Below, piece after piece: positions 23,554 through 30,854 of a DNA stretch of 64,000 bases. This DNA comes from an uncultured Anaerolineales bacterium (GTDB lineage: Bacteria; Chloroflexota; Anaerolineae; UBA7937): assembly GCA_964383935.1 (NCBI GenBank), contig CAYLIE010000001.1, forward strand, positions 148,543-212,542, read 5' to 3'. The stretch's first letter is position 1. Every line of letters starts with the position of its first letter. The position numbers and the translations under genes were made by a program. Below the pieces are notes generated by a model. That model ran no database searches. It was not told the origin of the DNA and was given only the letters and a program-made list of their open reading frames with translations.

Positions 23554-24375
23554 ATGGCTAAAGATGTGCGCCGTTCGACTATCGCTGGCTCCTGGTACCC
23601 TGGGAGCCCGGAGAGGCTAGGAGAGACGGTAGATAGGTTCCTAACCAACGCCGGACCTGGCCAGATCAAAGGAGAACTGGTAGGTCTTATCGCCCCTCAC
23701 GCCGGCTATCAATATTCGGGTCAGGTAGCGGCCTACGCCTACGTTGAGTTGCAGGATAGGGAATACGAGAAGGTCGCTCTCTTGGCCCCCAGCCACCGGG
23801 TCTATGTGGGGGAGTTCGCGGTCACCAGTTACGCTTACTACGAGACGCCCCTAGGCTTAGTGCCCGTGGATGGCGACCTGGTGGCCCAGTTGGAGGTGCA
23901 AATCCCTCTGAACAAGACCGACGAGAACCTGGAACACTCGCTGGAGATCCAACTCCCCTTCTTGCAACGGACGCTAGGGGAGTTTTCTTTACTTCCCATC
24001 CTCATGGGCGGCCAGTCCTGGTCTTCTTGCCAGGTGTTGAGCCAGGGGTTGGCCCAGGTTCTCCCCGGCCAGAACGCCCTTTTGGTGGCTTCCACCGACC
24101 TCTCCCATTTCTACGATTACCGCACCGCCGTTGAATTGGACAAGAAGGCCTTAGCCCGGATAGAGGCTTTCGACCCCGAGGGGCTATCTCAGGACCTTGA
24201 AGCCCAGAGGTGCGAGGCATGCGGTGGGGGGCCGGTGATGACTATGATGCTGGCGGCTCGCGCCCTGGGGGCGGACAAGGCCAAGGTCCTAGAGTACAAG
24301 AACTCCGGTGATGTGACCGGGGATAAATACCGAGTAGTGGGCTATGCCGCGGGGGTGGTGTATAAGACAAAATAA
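23554..24375 (+). CDS. MEMO1-family protein (AmmeMemoRadiSam system protein B)
   Basis: GSWYPGS ... IAPHAGYQYSG ... SHRVY ... DLSHF ... VVGYAAGVVY. The internal ATG at 23554 is preceded by GGGAGGGG. Confidence 0.7.
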   Translation: MAKDVRRSTIAGSWYPGSPERLGETVDRFLTNAGPGQIKGELVGLIAPHAGYQYSGQVAAYAYVELQDREYEKVALLAPSHRVYVGEFAVTSYAYYETPLGLVPVDGDLVAQLEVQIPLNKTDENLEHSLEIQLPFLQRTLGEFSLLPILMGGQSWSSCQVLSQGLAQVLPGQNALLVASTDLSHFYDYRTAVELDKKALARIEAFDPEGLSQDLEAQRCEACGGGPVMTMMLAARALGADKAKVLEYKNSGDVTGDKYRVVGYAAGVVYKTK

Positions 24376-24442
24376 TAGTAGATAGAGATCAAAGAAAAGT
24401 TAAGCGATCCTGAGTCTAGATCTCCATGAAAGGGAGGAAAAG

Positions 24443-24742
24443 GTGAATATCTATGTAGGCAATTTGTCCCGAGATGTCACCGAGGAGGATTTGCGAGAGG
24501 CGTTTGAAGCCTTCGGGCAGGTCGCATCGGTCAACATCATCAAGGACAGGTTCAGCGGTGAATCGAGGGGGTTCGGGTTTGTGGAGATGCCACAAAAGGC
24601 TGAAGCCCAAGCCGCCATTGCCGACTTGAACGGCAAGGATTTGAAGGGCCAAGCGCTAAATGTGAACGAGGCTCGCCCTCGTAGGGAAGGACGAAGAGAT
24701 AGAGGAGGCGGAGGCAGGGGCGGCGGTCGGCGCTCCTGGTAA
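24443..24742 (+). CDS. RRM-type glycine-rich RNA-binding protein
   Basis: IYVGNLS is the RNP-2 motif and RGFGFVEM the RNP-1 motif, followed by an RGG-rich tail. GTG start after GGGAGGAAAAG. Confidence 0.8.
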
Positions 24743-24781
24743 GCGGTTAGCAAGGGAGTCGAAGAGTAGGGTTCGCCTATA

Positions 24782-24840
24782 GGGGCTTTGCGGCTTGCAT
24801 CATAGTCACTGCCGCGGCATTGGAGCGAAGCCGCAAAGCC
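24782..24840. repeat. Long near-perfect hairpin (about 16-bp stem)
   Basis: GGGCTTTGCGGCTTGC ... GCGAAGCCGCAAAGCCC form an inverted repeat around a 26-nt loop. Confidence 0.45.
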
Positions 24841-24855
24841 CTGCGGGCGGAGTGA

Positions 24856-24912
24856 TGGGGATAAGTTCCGGGTAGTGGGCTACGCCGCCGCGGCGCTATA
24901 TCGGGCAAGTTA
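24856..24912 (+). repeat. Decayed duplicate of the 3-prime end of the MEMO1-family gene
   Basis: The reading GDKFRVVGYAAAALYRAS-stop compares with the original GDKYRVVGYAAGVVYKTK-stop at 24318-24375. Nucleotide identity is about 75% over 48 nt. Confidence 0.5.
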
Positions 24913-25019
24913 ACAAGTGGGGCGGAGTTAGAGAAGAAATTTGAGCTCGCAATCCAAGTCCTATATACTATAGAGGAGGACGTCATTGTTTGCGCTTAGA
25001 GATGAGGAGGCTTGCTACA

Positions 25020-25766
25020 ATGGCCAGAAGATATAAGAACTCTCCAATAGTTGAGGCCCTATGCGAGTTTCAATTTGAGCCTGGTCTTCCTTGGGATCTG
25101 ACTATTCCTGGTCTGGTTTATGAGGAAATAAGCGACGAGTTTCCTAAGAAACGGCAGGCCAAGCAACTTCAAGTCGAGTTGTCAGCAACGGTCGACGAAG
25201 GAATTACCCAGAAAGTGGCTGCGTCTGACCGGATGCAATTCTTGCGAGAGGATGAGAAGGCTTTGGTACAAGTGGGGCCGAATCTGCTAGTCATTAACCA
25301 CCTAAAGCCATATCCGACATGGGATAAGTTCTTGCCCCTGATCAAGAAGGGCTTTGAGGTCTACCGTAGAGTGGTAGGCCCAGAGGGGATGCGTCGCATT
25401 GGCTTGCGCTACATTAACCGCATCGAGATTGCAGGTCAGCGCGTGGAATTGGAAGACTATTTCGACTTTCGACCTTTCGTTGGGGACAAGTTACCTCAAG
25501 ACTTCGGTCAATTCATTGTGGGTATCCAAGTCCCCTATGAGGATTTGAGAGATGTGCTAAGAATCCAGCTTGCAAGCGCGAGAGTTGACATTCCTGATAC
25601 GGTTGCGATCATGCTCGATCTTGACTACTTTATGGCCCAGCCTGGACAGGTGGCGCTAGACAAAGTCATCGATTGGGTGAAAGTTGCCCATGATCGTGTC
25701 GAAGTGGCCTTTGAAGGCTGTATCACCGACCAACTGAGGCAGATCTTCGAGGAGGTAAAAGCATAG
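25020..25766 (+). CDS. Hypothetical protein, TIGR04255-like (N-terminal YKNSPIVEALCEFQF motif); low-GC cassette gene 1
   Basis: MARRYKNSPIVEALCEFQFEP resembles the conserved N-terminus of the TIGR04255 family of unknown function. GC is about 47% against about 60% in flanking genes. Confidence 0.4.
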   Translation: MARRYKNSPIVEALCEFQFEPGLPWDLTIPGLVYEEISDEFPKKRQAKQLQVELSATVDEGITQKVAASDRMQFLREDEKALVQVGPNLLVINHLKPYPTWDKFLPLIKKGFEVYRRVVGPEGMRRIGLRYINRIEIAGQRVELEDYFDFRPFVGDKLPQDFGQFIVGIQVPYEDLRDVLRIQLASARVDIPDTVAIMLDLDYFMAQPGQVALDKVIDWVKVAHDRVEVAFEGCITDQLRQIFEEVKA

Positions 25767-26303
25767 ATGCCGTACTCTGCAAGTGTTGAAGGATCAACGA
25801 AAGGCCCGTTTCTACCTGCCGTATTTCCTCTACGCAAGGAAGCGCTCTGGGGACAGGAAATCGCGCGGGCTGAGGCCGATGTAGTAAGCGTACCAGGCTC
25901 TGTATCTCTGTCAGAACCTCTAGAGAGGGAACTAATTTGGCGAGAAAGCGGTGCGTCTATTGTCCGCTTTTGGGATCGCGAAGTCCAGATGCTTGAGGAA
26001 CTGTATGTTTTCAGGAAGCGGATGGAGGTGTTACGATTCCTTGATGTGCACCCTTTCCTCGTCCCACTATTGTTAGAGGCTTACGCCAAGATCGGGAAGT
26101 ATTTTGAGCCATACCACCAGGTCTTTCTTGAAGTCATCAGTGACCCAGAAGCGATCAACGATCGCCAACTGTTCGCTTTCATTGGGACACGCCTTTCGCC
26201 AGACGAGGCTCTCGATAGCCTTGAGCGCTTCGATGAGGAGTGGTGGCTGGACAGTCTGGACGAAGCGCAGGGCAAGCTGTGTATTGATGTGGAGTTTGTA
26301 TGA
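25767..26303 (+). CDS. Hypothetical protein (178 aa); low-GC cassette gene 2
   Basis: It starts 1 nt after the gene 1 stop and overlaps gene 3 by 4 nt (ATGA). No family recognised. Confidence 0.4.
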   Translation: MPYSASVEGSTKGPFLPAVFPLRKEALWGQEIARAEADVVSVPGSVSLSEPLERELIWRESGASIVRFWDREVQMLEELYVFRKRMEVLRFLDVHPFLVPLLLEAYAKIGKYFEPYHQVFLEVISDPEAINDRQLFAFIGTRLSPDEALDSLERFDEEWWLDSLDEAQGKLCIDVEFV

Positions 26304-26677
26304 GTTTTGACTGGACTGAGTATCTTGCTCTGGCACAGGATCTTGCAGGGCAACGAGTGACTCCCCCCACCGTGGAAGCCAAGTTGCGCTCTGCAATCAG
26401 TAGGGCTTACTACGCGGCCTTCTGCAAGGCGCGAAACCATTTGCGTGATAGAGAAGGCCATTTGATCCCCGATACTGGCAAAGCGCACGGAATCGTTTCA
26501 GACCTGTTCCAGCGTAGCCCTCATAGACCGCGAAAGAAGATAGGTGCAAATTTGAATCGCCTGCGGGAAAATCGAAGAAAAGCAGACTATGATGATTTCA
26601 TTAGAAACCTCCCCAATATCACTAGCAAGGCTTTAAGACAGAGCGAGCAAATAGTCACCGAATTGGGTAAGCTCTGA
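26300..26677 (+). CDS. Hypothetical HEPN-like small protein (125 aa); low-GC cassette gene 3
   Basis: The helix RSAISRAYYAAFCKARNHLRDREGH has an R-x4-H spacing, and a C-terminal RKADYDD follows. This is reminiscent of HEPN-fold proteins. Weak call from pattern only. Confidence 0.3.
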   Translation: MSFDWTEYLALAQDLAGQRVTPPTVEAKLRSAISRAYYAAFCKARNHLRDREGHLIPDTGKAHGIVSDLFQRSPHRPRKKIGANLNRLRENRRKADYDDFIRNLPNITSKALRQSEQIVTELGKL

Positions 26678-26763
26678 CCCTCCAATGTAAACATACCAAG
26701 AATCCTCCTTGCTGGCTACCTCTGTTACACACTTTAGGCTGGTGTTCCCTGCAGGACAGGAAA

Positions 26764-29307
26764 GTGAAATTCGCAGAAATCGCCGTCAATGCCCCCCTCC
26801 GAGGGCGGCCAAAAACAAACGAGGGGCTCGCCCCCGGCTACTCCCACCTGGCCCCTACCTTCCACTACTCTATCCCCTCTCACCTCGAAGGCCTGGTGGC
26901 TCCGGGGCAACTGGTTCGCGTCCCCTTCGGCCCTCGCATGATGCAGGGGGTCGTCCTGGCCCTAAGGGATACCTCTCCCGTGGAGGAGACCCGCGACATC
27001 GAGGAGATCGCCGCCCTTCAGCCGGTCCTCCTCCCCTTCCAGATTGAACTGGCCCGCTGGATCAGCCACGAGTACCTCTCCCCCCTGATAGATGCCCTTC
27101 TCCTCATGCTCCCCCCAGGCTTGGGCCGCCGCGCCCGCACGATGATAAGCCTGGCTCCCGATGTTGCTCCGTCCTCTGACCTGACAAGCCAGGAGAGGGC
27201 CATCCTCGACTACCTGAAGCGAGAGGGGGAGACGAGGCTCGACCTTCTCTCTCGAAGGCTCAAGATGGCGGAGGCAAGGGAGGCGGTCGAGGGGCTCATA
27301 AGTCGGGGGTTTCTCCTCAAGCGCTCCCACCTTGAGCCCCCCAGGGTGAGGCCCAAGAGGGAGAGGGTCGCCTGGCTCAAGGTGGAGGTTGATGAAGAAA
27401 TCCTGGCCTCCTTGAAGCGAGCCCCCAAGCAGAGGGCTACTCTGGAATACCTGGCCCAAAACGATGGGGCCTCTGTCTCCGAGATATATAGCCAGGCGGG
27501 GGGAAGCAGTAGCGTGCTGGCGGCCCTGGAGGAGAAAGGGCTGATCGAACTCGTACAAGAGGAGGTATGGCGGGACCCCCTGGCTGACCGGGCCTTCATC
27601 TTGACCCGCCCTCCCAAACTCACCCCTCCCCAAGAGGCCGCCCATAAAGCCATCTCTGAGAGCCTCGACTCTCCCACCTCTCAGGTCTTCCTCCTCCATG
27701 GGGTGACGGGCAGCGGCAAAACCGAGATATATCTGCGGGCCCTGGAGGATCTGCTGGCCAGGAAGCAACAGGCCATCTGCCTCGTTCCCGAGATCGCCCT
27801 CACCCCCCAGACCATCCGCCGCTTCGGGGCCCGTTTCCCCGGGCGGATAGCCGTCCTCCATAGCAAACTCTCCTTGGGAGAGCGGTACGACACCTGGCGA
27901 CGGGCCAGAGAGGGCCAGATCGATATCGTCATCGGCTCCCGTTCCGCCATCTTCGCCCCCTTGCCCCGTTTGGGCCTCATCGTCATCGACGAGGAGCATG
28001 AGTGGTCGTATAAACAGGAGAAGACCCCCCGCTACCACGCTCGGGATGTGGCCATAAAACTCGCCGAGTTGACCGGAGCCGCAGTGGTTCTGGGGAGCGC
28101 CACCCCCGATGTGGGCACCTACTACCGTGCGGAGAGGGGAGAGTACCATCTCCTGAGCCTCCCCCAGCGGATTATGGGCCATAGAAAAGGCTTGGAGGAG
28201 CAGAGGGCCAGATACGCCATCCCCGATACCAGATACGCGGTGCGAGAACTGGAGAAGGGGTACGATGCTCAGTATATGGACCTCCCCCCCGTCCAAGTGG
28301 TGGACCTGCGCCAGGAACTTCGGGCTGGGAATCGGGGCATCTTCAGCCGGGCCCTCCAGGCTGCTATGAAGGAAACCTTGGCCGCGGGAGAGCAGGTGAT
28401 CCTATTCCTCAACCGTCGAGGAGCGGCCACTTTCGTTATGTGCCGCGATTGCGGCTATGTGATTAAGTGCCCCCGCTGCCAGGTGCCCCTGACCTATCAT
28501 TCCGCGGGGGAAGACCTGGTCTGCCACCATTGCAACAAAAGAAGCCGACCCCCCACCGTCTGCCCTAACTGCCAGAGCAAGCGGATTAAATATTTCGGCA
28601 TCGGCACGCAAAGGGTAGAAGAAGAAGTGGAACGTCTCTTCCACCGGGCTCGTACTATCCGCTGGGATAGGGATACCACGGGGCGAAAGGGGGCCCATGA
28701 AGCCATCTTGGAGCGGTTCATCAGCCGCCAAGCCGATGTGATGGTGGGCACCCAGATGGTGGCTAAGGGGCTCGATCTGCCCCTGGTTACCCTGGTGGGG
28801 GTGGTCACGGCGGATACCGCTCTGCACCTTCCCGATTTTCGGGCCGGGGAGCGGACCTTTCAACTTCTGACCCAGGTGGCCGGGCGCGCGGGGAGGAGCA
28901 TCTTGGGCGGCAAGGTGATCGTCCAGACCTACACCCCCCACCATTACGCCATTCAAGCGGCCAGCGGGCACGACTACGAGGCTTTCTATCGCCAGGAACT
29001 CGCCTTCCGCCGGGAGCAGGGGTACCCGCCCTATAAGAGGCTGGTGAGGCTCATCCGCGTGGGGAGGAGTTATAAGCGCTGCCAGGAGGATGCGGAGAGG
29101 CTCTATCGCGTTCTCGAGAATAAGATAGCGCGGCTGGGCTTGCCTGGCGTGGACCTCATCGGCCCGGCACCGGCCTTCCACGCTCGCCTGCGAGGGAACT
29201 ACCGTTGGCATATCATCGTCCGCGCCTGGGACCCCTACCCCCTCTTAGAGGATATGCCTCTCCCCCGAGGCTGGCGGGTGGACGTAGATCCGGTTAGCGT
29301 GCTGTAA
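26764..29307 (+). CDS. priA: Primosomal protein N-prime (replication restart helicase PriA)
   Basis: LLHGVTGSGKTEIY Walker A and DEEHE Walker B. A Cys-rich zinc-binding region CRDCGYVIKCPRCQVPLTYH...CHHCNKR...CPNCQS. 847 aa. Confidence 0.85.
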   Translation: MKFAEIAVNAPLRGRPKTNEGLAPGYSHLAPTFHYSIPSHLEGLVAPGQLVRVPFGPRMMQGVVLALRDTSPVEETRDIEEIAALQPVLLPFQIELARWISHEYLSPLIDALLLMLPPGLGRRARTMISLAPDVAPSSDLTSQERAILDYLKREGETRLDLLSRRLKMAEAREAVEGLISRGFLLKRSHLEPPRVRPKRERVAWLKVEVDEEILASLKRAPKQRATLEYLAQNDGASVSEIYSQAGGSSSVLAALEEKGLIELVQEEVWRDPLADRAFILTRPPKLTPPQEAAHKAISESLDSPTSQVFLLHGVTGSGKTEIYLRALEDLLARKQQAICLVPEIALTPQTIRRFGARFPGRIAVLHSKLSLGERYDTWRRAREGQIDIVIGSRSAIFAPLPRLGLIVIDEEHEWSYKQEKTPRYHARDVAIKLAELTGAAVVLGSATPDVGTYYRAERGEYHLLSLPQRIMGHRKGLEEQRARYAIPDTRYAVRELEKGYDAQYMDLPPVQVVDLRQELRAGNRGIFSRALQAAMKETLAAGEQVILFLNRRGAATFVMCRDCGYVIKCPRCQVPLTYHSAGEDLVCHHCNKRSRPPTVCPNCQSKRIKYFGIGTQRVEEEVERLFHRARTIRWDRDTTGRKGAHEAILERFISRQADVMVGTQMVAKGLDLPLVTLVGVVTADTALHLPDFRAGERTFQLLTQVAGRAGRSILGGKVIVQTYTPHHYAIQAASGHDYEAFYRQELAFRREQGYPPYKRLVRLIRVGRSYKRCQEDAERLYRVLENKIARLGLPGVDLIGPAPAFHARLRGNYRWHIIVRAWDPYPLLEDMPLPRGWRVDVDPVSVL

Positions 29308-29308: not shown

Positions 29309-29457
29309 TAGTGCCCACAGGGCTTTAGTCCAAGGCTACCACGTACCAGCGTTACTAGTTCCCTCTTTGCCTCCCTGATAGATTTATGATATATTTGCCT
29401 TGAGGCTCTATTCTATCTGGCGGCGTGCCTCTAGCAAGCCAGGATAGGAGGTATTCA

Positions 29458-29700
29458 ATGGCCAAAAGGATTTACAAAGTCATCTTCGAGCCCCAAGAGG
29501 AGGGCGGCTATACGGTAACCGTTCCCTCCCTGCCTGGCTGCATCTCCGAAGGTGATAGTTACGAGGAAGCCCTGGCTAATATCAAAGAGGCCATGGCCCT
29601 CTACCTCGGGAGCCTCGCCGCCGATGGGTTGCCTATCCCCGAGGAGAAAAACCTCATCCTGGAAATCGAATCCCCCTATGAACCGACTCCCAGCCCTTAA
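29458..29700 (+). CDS. hicB: HicB-family antitoxin (UPF0150)
   Basis: MAKRIYKVIFEPQEEGGYTVTVPSLPGCISEGDSYEEALANIKEAMALYL is the HicB/RNase-H-like fold signature. RBS AGGAGG; it overlaps the hicA start. Confidence 0.7.
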   Translation: MAKRIYKVIFEPQEEGGYTVTVPSLPGCISEGDSYEEALANIKEAMALYLGSLAADGLPIPEEKNLILEIESPYEPTPSP

Positions 29701-29902
29701 GCCTAAAGAGGTTGAGCGCGTTCTCCTCCGGGCGGGCTTTGTGGAGCATCGCCAAAAGGGAAGCCACAAGATCTTCAAAAAAGGAAGCCTACGAGTAGTG
29801 CTCCCTTATCATGGCAAAGATCTAAAGCGGGGAACGTTAAGGGCCATCATCGAACAAGCCCATCTGACTGTTGAGGAGTTCCTAGGGCTCTTGAGGGGAT
29901 AG
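29678..29902 (+). CDS. hicA: HicA-family mRNA interferase toxin
   Basis: LKPKEVERVLLRAGFVEHRQKGSHKIFKK is the YcfA/HicA dsRBD-like motif with a conserved His. 75 aa. Confidence 0.75.
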   Translation: MNRLPALKPKEVERVLLRAGFVEHRQKGSHKIFKKGSLRVVLPYHGKDLKRGTLRAIIEQAHLTVEEFLGLLRG

Positions 29903-30398: not shown

Positions 30399-30854
30399 AT
30401 GAAGTTCCTGGTGGACTCCATGCTGGGCCGGCTGGCCAAGTGGCTCCGCATCCTAGGCTATGACACCCTCTACTTCTCCTCCCTGGACGACAGCGATCTG
30501 GTGCGCATCGCCCGCGCCGAAGGACGCATGGTCCTCACCCGCGACCGGATGATGCTCAGGCGGAGGGGGATAGACGCCCTCCTCATCGAAAGCGATGACT
30601 TCAGGGAGCAGATCCGCCAACTCCTCCACGATTTGAACCTGAACCTAGACCGCTCTTTCAGCCGCTGCCCGGTCTGTAACAGCCCCTTGGAAGAGGTGGC
30701 CAAGGAAGCGGTCCGGGAGCGGGTCCCCCCTTACGTCTTCCAGACCCAGGAGCGGTTCAGCCTCTGCCCCCAGTGCGGCAAGGTCTACTGGCGAGGTACC
30801 CATTGGCAGAGGATGAGAGAAAGGCTCAAGAGGCTAGAAGAGGAAGCGCTCTGA
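30399..30854 (+). CDS. Mut7-C RNase domain protein (PIN-like, with a C-terminal zinc ribbon)
   Basis: MKFLVDSMLGRLAKWLRILGYDT is typical of PF01927. Two CxxC pairs follow (CPVCNS, CPQCGK). Confidence 0.7.
   Translation: MKFLVDSMLGRLAKWLRILGYDTLYFSSLDDSDLVRIARAEGRMVLTRDRMMLRRRGIDALLIESDDFREQIRQLLHDLNLNLDRSFSRCPVCNSPLEEVAKEAVRERVPPYVFQTQERFSLCPQCGKVYWRGTHWQRMRERLKRLEEEAL

What the first reader, a model, noticed from the sequence alone, without database searches (positions are those of the whole stretch)
24990..26677. Low-GC three-gene cassette (TIGR04255-like, unknown, HEPN-like) wedged between the RRM gene and priA
Three tightly packed ORFs of 258, 178 and 125 aa sit between the RRM gene and priA. 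The first stop is followed directly by the second ATG, and the second and third overlap as ATGA. GC content and codon usage differ visibly from the surrounding genes: about 47% GC with AGA/ATA-rich codons, against about 60% around them. None of the three has an assignable function. Gene 1 carries the YKNSPIVEALCEFQF-type N-terminus that I associate with the uncharacterised TIGR04255 family. Gene 3 has an HEPN-like helix pair (SRAYYAAF ... RDREGH ... RKADY). The cassette lies just downstream of a decayed duplicate of a neighbouring gene end and a long hairpin, and directly upstream of priA, whose other side also carries an inserted module (hicBA). The compact operon layout, foreign composition, a possible HEPN RNase-like component and placement at a recombination-scarred locus together suggest a horizontally acquired module of unknown function, which would most plausibly be a toxin/abortive-infection-type or other conflict system.
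Basis: partly seen in the sequence, partly recalled or inferred. Interest (0 to 1): 0.72.

Follow-up and report, generated by a model that had tools for sequence, protein, structure and literature searches.

The report
TIGR04255-headed three-gene toxin–antitoxin cassette
The three small genes are one copy of a widespread, mobile three-gene cassette: an uncharacterised TIGR04255 protein, a new kind of antitoxin-like protein and a HEPN-type putative RNase toxin; the same head gene sits in front of several other toxin families, so it looks like an undescribed third component of toxin–antitoxin or phage-defence modules.

Summary
Three co-oriented, translationally coupled ORFs lie at 25020–26677: g1 is 248 aa (not 258), g2 178 aa, g3 125 aa. 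Their GC is 0.50–0.52, against a mean of 0.57 for the window's genes.

- **g1** is a full-length TIGR04255 protein (E 5.5e-43).
- **g3** is an AF0298/UPF0332-type HEPN protein, basic (pI 10).
- **g2** is an acidic (pI 4.5) member of a large unannotated family. A g2 homologue sat directly upstream of the g3 homologue in 80 of 80 loci, so g2–g3 looks like an antitoxin–toxin pair.

The g1–g2–g3 order recurs in at least 57 of 80 species-representative genomes from many phyla, in unrelated contexts. g1 homologues also head cassettes that end in PIN/VapC, zeta toxin and two unknown proteins. [quoted passage not shown]

In this lineage the cassette is old: it is as diverged as its flanking genes. The local scar comes from a later insertion of the RRM gene.

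My best reading is a tripartite toxin–antitoxin or abortive-infection module in which g1 regulates the antitoxin through its disordered N-terminal tail. Toxicity, neutralisation and g1's role are inferred, not shown. I found no paper that mentions TIGR04255.

Verdict: new variant of a known kind; interest about 0.6.

The parts
24941..24969 (+). Promoter-like element TTGAGC-17-TATACT, about 50 nt upstream of the g1 start
   Evidence: Consensus scan, 9 of 12 matches. Both hexamers are kept in the collinear upstream regions of relatives L009 and L016. Function is inferred.
25004..25009 (+). GAGGAG ribosome-binding site for g1
   Evidence: Read directly from the sequence, 10 nt before ATG 25020. 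Conserved in L009 and L016.
25020..25766 (+). g1: TIGR04255 family protein, 248 aa, acidic (pI 5.0). The conserved head gene of the cassette.
25767..26303 (+). g2: antitoxin-like protein, 178 aa, pI 4.5. It has a variable disordered N-terminal tail (about residues 1–70) and a conserved C-terminal α/β core (about 72–178).
   Evidence: No Pfam, NCBIfam or PADLOC hit. The family has 4649 representative clusters. Only the core is conserved. AF2 gives the core pLDDT about 90 and the tail below 50. A g2 homologue lies directly upstream of g3 homologues in 80 of 80 loci. Some two-gene relatives carry HTH-, RHH- or HicB-like N-termini.
26300..26677 (+). g3: HEPN-domain protein of the AF0298/UPF0332 type, 125 aa, pI 10.1. 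The putative RNase toxin.
   Evidence: Pfam HEPN E 9e-4, below the gathering score. Homologues are named HEPN/UPF0332 and carry PF05168. Profile hit to the PDB HEPN protein 9xbd at E 5e-5. Invariant R35, H63, R92, D96 and Y97 match the 'D in place of H plus alternative upstream H' variant described in PMC3710099.
24857..24913 (+). Context, not part of the system: relic copy of the old Memo gene 3' end. Together with 24914–25019 it is collinear with the Memo-end–intergenic–g1 junction of relatives.
   Evidence: Direct repeat D1, 75% identical. Alignment with L009 and L016.
24783..24841 (+). Context, not part of the system: long hairpin downstream of the inserted RRM gene
   Evidence: Inverted repeat I2, 14 bp at 100%. 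Fold energy -49 kcal/mol, z -5.2. No Rfam family.

Best explanation
The region is one copy of a conserved, horizontally mobile three-gene cassette that works like a tripartite toxin–antitoxin (abortive-infection-type) module.

- **g3** is a small basic HEPN protein of the AF0298/UPF0332 type. It is predicted to be an RNase toxin that uses R92 plus the alternative histidine H63.
- **g2** is its dedicated acidic antitoxin. Its conserved C-terminal α/β core neutralises g3 by binding it.
- **g1** (TIGR04255) is a strongly conserved accessory component, made in stoichiometric, translationally coupled amounts. It acts on the antitoxin through g2's variable, disordered N-terminal tail. It either stabilises or holds the antitoxin, or it releases or inactivates it when a signal arrives, such as phage infection or loss of a partnered restriction system.

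Shown here: the three-gene unit, the obligate g2–g3 pairing, g1's promiscuity across toxin families, and the cassette's defence and mobile-element contexts.

Inferred: g3 toxicity, neutralisation by g2, g1 contact with the g2 tail, and any role in phage defence.
For: **The cassette is a unit.**
- g1–g2–g3 in the same order, tightly packed, in 52 of 80 species-representative loci, plus 5 more with a divergent g2. They come from many phyla and include two MAGs labelled archaeon.
- The same unit sits in unrelated contexts.
- The gap between the g1 stop and the middle-gene start is mostly 0, -1 or -4 nt.

**g2–g3 behaves as a toxin–antitoxin pair.**
- 80 of 80 g3-type loci have g2 directly upstream. 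Where upstream sequence allows a call, 31 lack g1 and 25 have it, so g2–g3 can stand alone.
- The ATGA overlap.
- g2 pI 4.5 and g3 pI 10.1; family medians 4.6 and 9.6.
- Some two-gene g2 proteins carry HTH-, RHH- or HicB-like N-termini, as antitoxins typically do.
- g3's conserved residues fit a HEPN variant predicted in the literature to be active.

**g1 is a shared third component.** g1 homologues head cassettes that end in:
- PIN/VapC;
- zeta toxin, on a Vibrio plasmid;
- two unknown third genes, found on a P2-like Ralstonia phage and on an IMG/VR contig.

In addition, g1 clades track the module type, and g1 is under purifying selection like the housekeeping flanks (pN/pS 0.14) while g2 and g3 are at 0.44 and 0.60.

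**A link between g1 and the g2 tail.**
- The extension before the g2 core has a median of 74 aa (minimum 29) when g1 is present, against about 30 aa in two-gene modules.
- An N-terminal motif, M-[PTA]-[YHF]-[LSG]-[ATV]..Q, is enriched only in g1-linked g2 proteins (p 3e-4 and 4e-6). It is kept even when the linker grows to about 190 aa.
- Two g2 homologues begin with g1's own 'KYKNPP' N-terminus, which looks like a deletion scar.

**Defence context.**
- The cassette lies exactly between type III-like mod and res genes. In the genome set, mod abuts upstream in 7 of 62 evaluable loci, res abuts downstream in 6 of 58, and both do in 4 of 45. This includes one non-HEPN cassette.
- The idea of suicide modules attached to R-M systems has precedent: PMC3632139 and bioRxiv 10.1101/2023.04.06.535777.
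Against: - There is no experimental or structural evidence for toxicity, neutralisation or a g1–g2 contact.
- g3 lacks the canonical Rx4-6H histidine and falls below Pfam's HEPN gathering score. It could be a non-catalytic binder.
- The N-terminal motif is heterogeneous (leave-one-out interquartile range -3.6 to 7.4 bits) and is not shared by the PIN-type or type-B middle proteins.
- In this window the cassette is vertically inherited among housekeeping genes and has no adjacent defence genes of its own.
- g1's invariant R-Y-I-N and D-x-D on β-strands look more like an enzyme or ligand site than a passive scaffold.
- PADLOC has no model for g1 or g2.
- Almost no copies were found in the viral collections searched.
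Confidence: 0.55

Rival explanations
1. g1 is an enzyme. It would be a nucleotide- or ATP-using transferase, kinase or ligase on a glutamine-synthetase/guanidino-kinase-like or TBP-like sheet. It would covalently modify the toxin or the antitoxin tail. The system would then work like a type VII (HepT–MntA-style) module in which g1 supplies the chemistry and g2 is only an adaptor.
For: - In 21–24%-identical relatives the invariant residues are polar and lie on β-strands: R130-Y-I-N133 and D200-x-D202, plus the N-terminal P-I-x-E-A motif conserved in all but the N-terminally truncated Vibrio sequence.
- g1 is constrained like a housekeeping enzyme (pN/pS 0.14).
- g3 has an invariant Tyr97 next to R92/D96. 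The only solved relative was also deposited as a Y-to-F variant.
- g2 has a weak nucleotidyltransferase-like fold but no catalytic motif.
Against: - No nucleotide-binding motif is recognisable, and there is no Pfam or PDB sequence hit.
- The same g1 family serves PIN, zeta and unknown toxins. A single toxin-directed chemistry is hard to picture, although a shared antitoxin-tail substrate remains possible.
Confidence: 0.2
2. The cassette is not a toxin system. g3 would be a non-catalytic HEPN-type nucleotide- or RNA-binding protein, and the three genes would form a benign regulatory or housekeeping module that happens to be mobile.
For: - The canonical Rx4-6H histidine is absent.
- The Pfam HEPN score is below the gathering score.
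- The cassette is stably inherited between Memo and priA, with the same divergence as its flanks.
- PMC3710099 notes that some HEPN domains are inactive binders.
Against: - g3 keeps the alternative H63/R92 constellation that the same paper predicts to be active.
- The charge complementarity, obligate pairing and overlapping genes are typical of toxin–antitoxin pairs.
- The sister cassettes carry bona fide toxin families, PIN/VapC and zeta.
- The distribution is patchy across phyla, the composition is foreign, and copies lie in R-M, prophage and plasmid contexts.
Confidence: 0.1
3. g1 is an ω-like transcriptional autoregulator. The order regulator–antitoxin–toxin would match ω-ε-ζ. g1 would bind the cassette promoter through its TBP-like sheet, replacing the DNA-binding domain that g2 lacks.
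For: - The gene order matches ω-ε-ζ, and one relative actually ends in a zeta toxin.
- The fold is TBP-like.
- Some two-gene g2 proteins carry HTH- or RHH-like N-termini that the g1-linked forms lack.
Against: - g1 is acidic (pI 5.0, family median 5.1), and its conserved residues are mostly acidic or aromatic.
- At 248 aa and 60–70% identity across phyla, it is unlike small, fast-evolving TA repressors.
- This reading does not explain the g2 tail and its N-terminal motif.
Confidence: 0.08
4. g1 is functionally unrelated to g2–g3. The real unit would be the two-gene g2–g3 module, and TIGR04255 genes would merely be a favoured landing site or a hitch-hiker.
For: - g2–g3 exists without g1 in 31 of the 56 loci where this can be evaluated.
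- g1 and g2–g3 differ in synonymous divergence between the window and L009 (pS 0.33 against 0.11). This suggests partly separate histories.
Against: - The order is invariant, and the g1/middle-gene junction has 0 to -4 nt spacing in 90 or more loci.
- g1 clades co-vary with the module type.
- The g2 tail and motif depend on the presence of g1.
- The same three-gene logic holds with four other third-gene families and at 21–25% g1 identity.
Confidence: 0.05

Closest known systems
HEPN–MNT toxin–antitoxin modules (type VII HepT–MntA, and the classical COG1895/COG2250 HEPN paired with a minimal nucleotidyltransferase)
   Same: - A small HEPN protein is encoded immediately downstream of, and overlapping, a small partner gene.
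- The HEPN protein is basic and the partner acidic.
- g3 belongs to the AF0298/UPF0332-type 'classical' HEPN group.
   Different: - The partner is not an MNT. It has no GS…DxD motif and no NTP_transf_2 hit in any of 44 family members. It has no PDB sequence hit, and hhalign found nothing, although the MNT profile used was weak.
- g3 lacks HepT's Rx4HxY motif.
- A third, larger gene (g1) is present.
TAC, toxin–antitoxin–chaperone systems (HigBA, MqsRA or HicAB with a SecB-like chaperone). PMC9098466 is listed; the details of the chaperone-addiction region come from my own knowledge.
   Same: - The system is tripartite.
- A conserved third protein serves several unrelated toxin–antitoxin families.
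- The antitoxin carries a disordered extension that stand-alone two-gene homologues lack.
   Different: - The extension is N-terminal, not C-terminal.
- g1 is the first gene, not the last.
- The toxin families differ: HEPN, PIN, zeta and unknowns.
ω-ε-ζ / PezAT three-gene operons (own knowledge)
   Same: The order is accessory gene, then antitoxin, then toxin. One TIGR04255-headed cassette ends in a zeta-family toxin.
   Different: ω is a roughly 70-aa ribbon-helix-helix repressor. g1 is a 248-aa acidic protein with a duplicated β-α-β4-α fold.
HEPN nucleases linked to R-M systems or carrying TBP-like domains: PrrC–EcoprrI, and RnlA/LsoA–RnlB (PMC3710099, PMC3632139)
   Same: - A HEPN effector sits inside an R-M operon as a presumed second line of defence. 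Relatives of this cassette lie between mod and res.
   Different: - Here the components are separate small proteins with a dedicated antitoxin.
- The R-M partner is type III, not type I.
- The window's own copy is not next to any R-M system.
Panacea (PanA/DUF4065), the hyper-promiscuous antitoxin domain (own knowledge)
   Same: One conserved protein family is paired with many unrelated toxin families.
   Different: PanA is itself the antitoxin in two-gene modules. Here g1 comes in addition to a module-specific middle protein.

Membership tests
TIGR04255 family (g1) | Full-length match to the NCBIfam TIGR04255 HMM above its curated cutoff | tested here: met
   147.6 bits against a cutoff of 30. 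E 5.5e-43. Model positions 1–252 of 252 are covered. Homologues are named TIGR04255 by NCBI and JGI.
HEPN superfamily (g3) | Sequence-profile membership (Pfam PF05168 or a solved HEPN protein) | tested here: met
   The window protein alone scores 19.8 bits, below the gathering score of 22. Many 54–60%-identical homologues carry PF05168 or are named HEPN/UPF0332. The family profile hits the PDB HEPN protein 9xbd_A at E 5.3e-5 and shares the SRAYYA and RNxxDY motifs.
HEPN superfamily (g3) | Catalytic Rx4-6H motif at the end of helix 3 | tested here: not met
The canonical position reads R92-N-K-A-D96-Y97, with no histidine. The pattern matches the published AF0298-like variant: D in place of H, and an alternative conserved H upstream, here the invariant H63. 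The family assignment therefore stands, but catalysis is uncertain.
HEPN superfamily (g3) | Four-helix up-and-down bundle fold; RNase activity | not tested
RNase activity needs an experiment.
HEPN–MNT (type VII) toxin–antitoxin | The partner is a minimal nucleotidyltransferase with hG[GS]…[DE]x[DE] | tested here: not met
   - The g2 alignment contains no such motif.
- No NTP_transf_2 hit in any of 44 family members, even at E up to 10.
- No PDB sequence hit.
- hhalign probability 0.1% against a small MNT profile.
Type II toxin–antitoxin module (g2–g3) | Adjacent, co-oriented, overlapping small genes with the antitoxin first; obligate co-occurrence | tested here: met
   The ATGA overlap. In 80 of 80 g3-type loci a g2 gene abuts upstream.
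Type II toxin–antitoxin module (g2–g3) | The antitoxin has a DNA-binding domain for autoregulation | tested here: not met
   The window's g2 has only a disordered tail and no Pfam domain. Some two-gene relatives do have HTH-like, RHH-like (by eye) or HicB-like (Pfam E 0.0023) N-termini.
Type II toxin–antitoxin module (g2–g3) | The toxin arrests growth and the antitoxin neutralises it by binding | not testable with these tools
   Indirect evidence only: pI 10.1 against 4.5.
TAC (toxin–antitoxin–chaperone) | The third component is a SecB-like chaperone | tested here: not met
   [not shown]
TAC (toxin–antitoxin–chaperone) | The antitoxin carries an extra disordered segment that is tied to the presence of the third component | tested here: met
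   Median extension is 74 aa with g1 against about 30 aa without it. The N-terminal motif is enriched only with g1. The segment is N-terminal here, whereas it is C-terminal in TAC.
Known anti-phage defence systems (PADLOC-DB 2.0) | Match of the components to a defence-system model | tested here: not met
   No hits for g1 or g2. g3 gives only a weak HEPN_IX hit at E 6.6e-4. The 'type C' sister cassettes give weak PDC-M32A/B hits.

The most novel reading that the evidence does not exclude
TIGR04255 proteins would be a previously unrecognised, hyper-promiscuous third component of a large superfamily of tripartite toxin–antitoxin or abortive-infection systems. They would act as a sensor or switch, possibly enzymatic.

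- They dock onto a short N-terminal tail of module-specific antitoxins.
- Through that tail they control at least five unrelated effector families: HEPN, PIN/VapC, zeta and two unknown families.
Probability: 0.35. Interest if true: 0.8.

Novelty: new variant of a known kind. Interest (0 to 1): 0.62.

Why it matters
- **An annotation gap.** TIGR04255 is a widespread named family with no known function. This search alone found 1116 close homologues and 228 confirmed genomic loci. The g2 family, with about 4600 representative clusters, has no annotation at all.
- **A concrete hypothesis for both.** Together with a HEPN protein, the two families form a conserved cassette, and the head gene is shared with PIN, zeta and unknown effectors. 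That gives both families a testable role.
- **New effector candidates.** The pattern flags two further putative toxin families.
- **A new architecture.** It adds a tripartite arrangement to toxin–antitoxin and defence biology.
- **Annotation of this genome.** The locus should be read as an old, vertically inherited toxin–antitoxin-like cassette, not as a fresh insertion.

Tried and rejected
2. **g1 as SecB-like or otherwise related to a solved protein: rejected.**
   - No PDB sequence relative.
   - The 9hnh_A hit with the diverse profile is a repeat protein, apparently designed, matched by a short low-complexity stretch, so it is spurious.
   - The BFVD viral library returned only low-TM TBP-like proteins from giant viruses.
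3. **Pfam CcdA hit on g1: dismissed.** E 5.8e-4, below the gathering score, and it covers residues 55–93 of the long ORF, mostly in the low-confidence loop of the model.
H54 is not conserved.
5. **Internal promoter-like site at 25585–25612 inside g1: treated as chance.** It is not conserved in L018 or L021.
6. **RNA elements: none.** Rfam found nothing credible in 24300–26900.
7. **Phage carriage: nearly absent.**
   - IMG/VR gave one weak locus.
   - A second scan found nothing.
   - INPHARED gave two weak hits.
8. **Literature: nothing found.**
   - No paper contains TIGR04255, CHP04255, IPR026349 or UPF0332.
   - No paper holds the PDB code 9XBD in a relevant sense.
   - No description of this architecture turned up in the tripartite toxin–antitoxin or R-M-embedded searches.
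9. **afdb50 fold library: not available**.
10. **A universal N-terminal docking motif across all module types: not supported.** The motif is specific to the HEPN-type clades.
Full report
**1. What is in the window**

Three + strand ORFs occupy 24990/25020–26677. The g1 stop ends at 25766 and the g2 ATG is at 25767. g2 and g3 overlap as ATGA at 26300–26303.

g1 most likely starts at ATG 25020, giving 248 aa:
- a GAGGAG lies 10 nt upstream;
- the TIGR04255 model begins at residue 14 of the longer ORF;
- gene calls on an identical contig and on relatives give 248 aa.

A promoter-like TTGAGC-17-TATACT lies at 24941–24969. It is kept in relatives.

Composition:
- GC is 0.495, 0.521 and 0.499 for g1, g2 and g3. 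The mean for 60 window genes is 0.568 (sd 0.028). GC3 z-scores are -1.5 to -2.0.
- AGA is enriched (24% against 8% of Arg codons, p 9e-4). ATA is not; ATT is.

**2. Identity of the three proteins**

*g1*
- It is a full-length TIGR04255 protein (E 5.5e-43), with no Pfam or PADLOC model.
- The family is large and strongly conserved: 1116 hits, and the best 120 are all 56–100% identical.
- An AlphaFold2 model (pLDDT 83.7, pTM 0.82) shows two β-α-β4-α halves that form one large antiparallel sheet.
- The viral fold library returns TBP-like proteins at low TM-scores.
- In relatives only 21–24% identical (a Vibrio plasmid, a Crinalium plasmid, a Ralstonia phage and an IMG/VR contig), the invariant residues are Y98, W101, R130-Y-I-N133, D200-x-D202 and F231. 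The N-terminal P-I-x-E-A is also kept.
- g1 is acidic, with pI 5.0.

*g3*
- It gives a sub-threshold Pfam HEPN hit.
- It has 688 homologues. Among those listed, many are named HEPN/UPF0332 or carry PF05168.
- Its family profile hits the solved 'HEPN domain-containing protein' 9xbd at E 5e-5.
- Across 136 unique relatives the conserved set is R30, S34, R35, Y37, Y38, R45, N46, H63, R92, D96 and Y97.
- This matches the published description of AF0298-like HEPN-T proteins. In them the histidine of Rx4-6H is missing (D in its place), and an alternative, strongly conserved histidine from the segment between helices 2 and 3 may complete the active site (PMC3710099).
- g3 is very basic, with pI 10.1 (family median 9.6).

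*g2*
- It has no hit in Pfam, NCBIfam or PADLOC.
- Its family is large: 4649 representative clusters at E ≤ 1e-3 among 1.84 billion proteins.
- Only the C-terminal part, about 105 residues, is conserved. Residues 1–70 vary in sequence and length and are predicted to be disordered, while the core has pLDDT about 90.
- No sequence evidence supports MNT ancestry, and the GS…DxD motif is absent.
- g2 is acidic, with pI 4.5.

**3. The cassette is a conserved, mobile unit**

I scanned one genome per species (GTDB) with a g1 profile. It gave 228 confirmed loci, and the 80 kept come from many groups: Chloroflexota, Verrucomicrobiota, Nitrospirota, Acidobacteriota, Thermodesulfobacteriota, Bipolaricaulia and Spirochaetota, plus two MAGs labelled archaeon.

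- In 52 of 80 loci, g2 and g3 homologues follow g1 in the same order and tightly packed. Five more have a divergent g2.
- The contexts are unrelated: PQQ/BioY, UvrD/DNA pol III δ', glycoside hydrolases and others.

The reciprocal scan of metagenome contigs used a g3 profile.
- A g2 gene abutted upstream in 80 of 80 loci.
- Where upstream sequence allowed a call, 25 loci had g1 and 31 did not.

So g2–g3 is an obligate pair that exists either alone or behind g1.

**4. g1 heads cassettes with other effectors**

Where g2 and g3 are missing, g1 is followed by another pair of genes. The start of the middle gene sits 0, -1 or -4 nt from the g1 stop in most of the 95 loci examined.

| Cassette type | Middle gene | Third gene | Where seen |
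|---|---|---|---|
| PIN | ~119 aa acidic protein | PIN/VapC (Pfam 4e-14; NCBIfam VapC) | L042 and similar; L088 is a variant |
| Type B | ~111–131 aa | ~175–183 aa unknown, with 'SCDL…PPYREHL' | several genome loci; an IMG/VR viral contig |
| Type C | 160–224 aa | ~124–146 aa unknown; weak PADLOC PDC-M32 hits | genome loci; a P2-like Ralstonia phage |
| Zeta | hypothetical protein | zeta toxin (Pfam 3e-12) | Vibrio parahaemolyticus plasmid, with an annotated 'TIGR04255 family protein' |
| Unclassified | hypothetical protein | hypothetical protein (Crinalium); no adjacent third gene annotated (Thermus) | Crinalium and Thermus plasmids |

In a neighbour-joining tree of g1, the PIN-type, type-B and divergent-g2 cassettes each form their own clades. 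That indicates co-evolution with occasional module swaps.

**5. Evidence that g1 acts through the antitoxin's N-terminal tail**

- The number of residues between the g1 stop and the g2 core has a median of 74 (minimum 29). In two-gene modules the upper bound for the extension has a median of about 30.
- g1-linked HEPN-type middle proteins share a weak N-terminal motif, M-[PTA]-[YHF]-[LSG]-[ATV]..Q. Its leave-one-out PSSM median is 3.2 bits. The best candidate starts of two-gene modules score -3.5, and internal control windows score -3.6 (Mann–Whitney p 3e-4 and 4e-6).
- Long family members (250–313 aa) keep 'MAYLPSLQE…' at the N-terminus. A variable linker of up to about 190 residues separates it from the core.
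- Some two-gene g2 proteins instead carry HTH-like, RHH-like or HicB-like N-termini.
- Two family members begin with g1's own 'KYKNPP' motif, which looks like a deletion scar.
- The motif is heterogeneous, and the other module types do not share it. This is therefore a lead, not proof.

**6. Defence and mobile-element context**

- In L186 and L187 the cassette lies between an N6_N4 methyltransferase gene and a ResIII helicase-nuclease gene.
- In the species-representative set, such a Mod gene abuts g1 in 7 of 62 evaluable loci. A Res gene abuts the third gene in 6 of 58, and both do in 4 of 45. One of these loci is a type-B cassette.
- HEPN nucleases embedded in R-M loci (PrrC), and suicide modules that back up restriction, are established ideas (PMC3632139; PMC3710099; bioRxiv 10.1101/2023.04.06.535777).
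- Other copies lie on plasmids and on a P2-like phage.
- The window's own copy is not next to any defence gene apart from hicBA beyond priA.

**7. History at this locus**

- Relatives about 90% identical have Tmk–Zn-ribbon–RemA–Gmk–Memo–[g1 g2 g3]–PriA. They lack the RRM gene, and an EcoO109I-like R-M system replaces hicBA after priA. These include contigs L009–L011 and Anaerolineales bacterium UBA3082 (L016).
- Window 24857–25019 is collinear with their Memo 3' end plus the 106-bp intergenic region.
- 24857–24913 is a 75%-identical relic of the present Memo 3' end.
- The RRM gene and its hairpin (-49 kcal/mol, z -5.2) were therefore inserted upstream of a cassette that was already there.
- Protein identities to L009 are the same for the cassette (87–90%) as for its flanks (89–92.5%). 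The low GC is shared: 0.49–0.51 in L009.
- Between the window and L009, g1 has pS 0.33 and pN/pS 0.14, much like the flanks (pS 0.18–0.28, pN/pS about 0.19). g2 and g3 have pS 0.11 and pN/pS 0.44–0.60.
  - This is one pairwise comparison with small counts.
  - It is compatible with faster protein evolution of the TA pair, and possibly a more recent exchange of it.

**8. Interpretation**

The best-supported reading is a tripartite toxin–antitoxin or abortive-infection-type cassette. g3 is the HEPN toxin, g2 its binding antitoxin, and g1 a conserved regulator acting on the antitoxin tail.

- The closest functional analogue is the TAC system. It too has a conserved third protein, several toxin–antitoxin families and an extra disordered antitoxin segment. 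However, g1 is not SecB-like.
- The main rival is that g1 is an enzyme. This rests on its invariant R-Y-I-N and D-x-D on strands, its distant guanidino-kinase/glutamine-synthetase-like fold and its housekeeping-like constraint. In that case the mechanism would be closer to type VII systems.
- An ω-like repressor role is unlikely, given g1's acidity and size.
- Pure coincidence of g1 with g2–g3 is very unlikely, given sections 3–5.
- A non-toxic role for g3 cannot be excluded, because the canonical histidine is missing.

**9. Novelty**

I found no paper that mentions TIGR04255, CHP04255, IPR026349 or UPF0332, and none that describes this architecture. PADLOC-DB 2.0 has no model for g1 or g2.

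The literature library is incomplete, so a prior description under another name cannot be ruled out.

I rate this as a new variant of a known kind: a tripartite toxin–antitoxin or abortive-infection module with a new third component and a new antitoxin family. All functional statements remain to be tested.

Noticed in passing
window 24443-24913: The RRM_1 gene (24443–24742) and a strong hairpin (24783–24841) were inserted between the Memo gene and the cassette. The insertion left a 57-nt, 75%-identical relic of the Memo 3' end at 24857–24913. Relatives L009–L011 and L016 lack the RRM gene.
   Followed up: yes
window 29425-29902; L009 10739-13667: The site just downstream of priA is a variable island. 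This window has hicB/hicA there. Relatives about 90% identical have an EcoO109I-like restriction enzyme and a 731-aa N6_N4 methyltransferase (GC 0.49) at the same place.
   Followed up: partly
L017, L022, L051, L070, L086, L170, L186, L187 (for example L186 6201-12173): [quoted passage not shown]
   Followed up: partly
L055 4726-5277, L085 6096-6635, L086 6087-6611, L094 6131-6673, L176 7000-7566: An unannotated family of 175–188-aa proteins is the third gene of 'type B' cassettes. It carries 'YPWYE…MTQSCDLEN…CPHWDL…PPYREHLSQSFARFFMRVGLP'. It has no Pfam, NCBIfam or PADLOC hit and is a candidate new toxin or effector.
   Followed up: partly
L045 5113-5508, L062 6441-6815, L180 1621-2061: A second unannotated third-gene family ('type C', about 124–146 aa, basic, with a 'D[NH]P[AR]H' motif) follows TIGR04255-like genes. 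One copy is on a P2-like Ralstonia phage. It gives weak hits to the PADLOC candidate PDC-M32B.
   Followed up: partly
P0029 (L012 6001-6621), P0043, P0292: Variant g2 architectures:
- P0029 starts with g1's 'KYKNPPIIEA' N-terminus, followed by a HicB-like domain and then the g2 core. It sits next to an IS element.
- P0043 fuses 'KYRNPP' directly to the core.
- P0292 is a tandem of two g2 cores.
   Followed up: partly
window 25020-26677 compared with L009 6254-7911: Synonymous divergence differs within the cassette: g1 has pS 0.33, while g2 and g3 have 0.11. The flanks are at 0.18–0.28. This may reflect a more recent exchange of the g2–g3 part, or constraints on synonymous sites. It rests on a single pairwise comparison.
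   Followed up: no
window 30399-30854: A Mut7-C/PIN-like gene has the highest GC3 in the window (0.84, z +2.6). It is conserved in relatives next to the variable island.
   Followed up: no
L003-L008 (for example L003 1747-3108 and 6001-9543): The two-gene g2–g3 module of another lineage sits in a stretch rich in other conflict-type genes: Fic with a small partner, TumE with a partner, and an MJECL33-family gene. This stretch lies between ppdK and dnaG.
   Followed up: no
PDB 9xbd / 9xbc: The only solved sequence relative of g3 is an undescribed 125-aa 'HEPN domain-containing protein'. It was also deposited with the tyrosine of the RNxxDY motif changed to phenylalanine. This suggests the depositors consider that Tyr, equivalent to g3 Y97, functionally important. 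I found no paper on it.
   Followed up: partly
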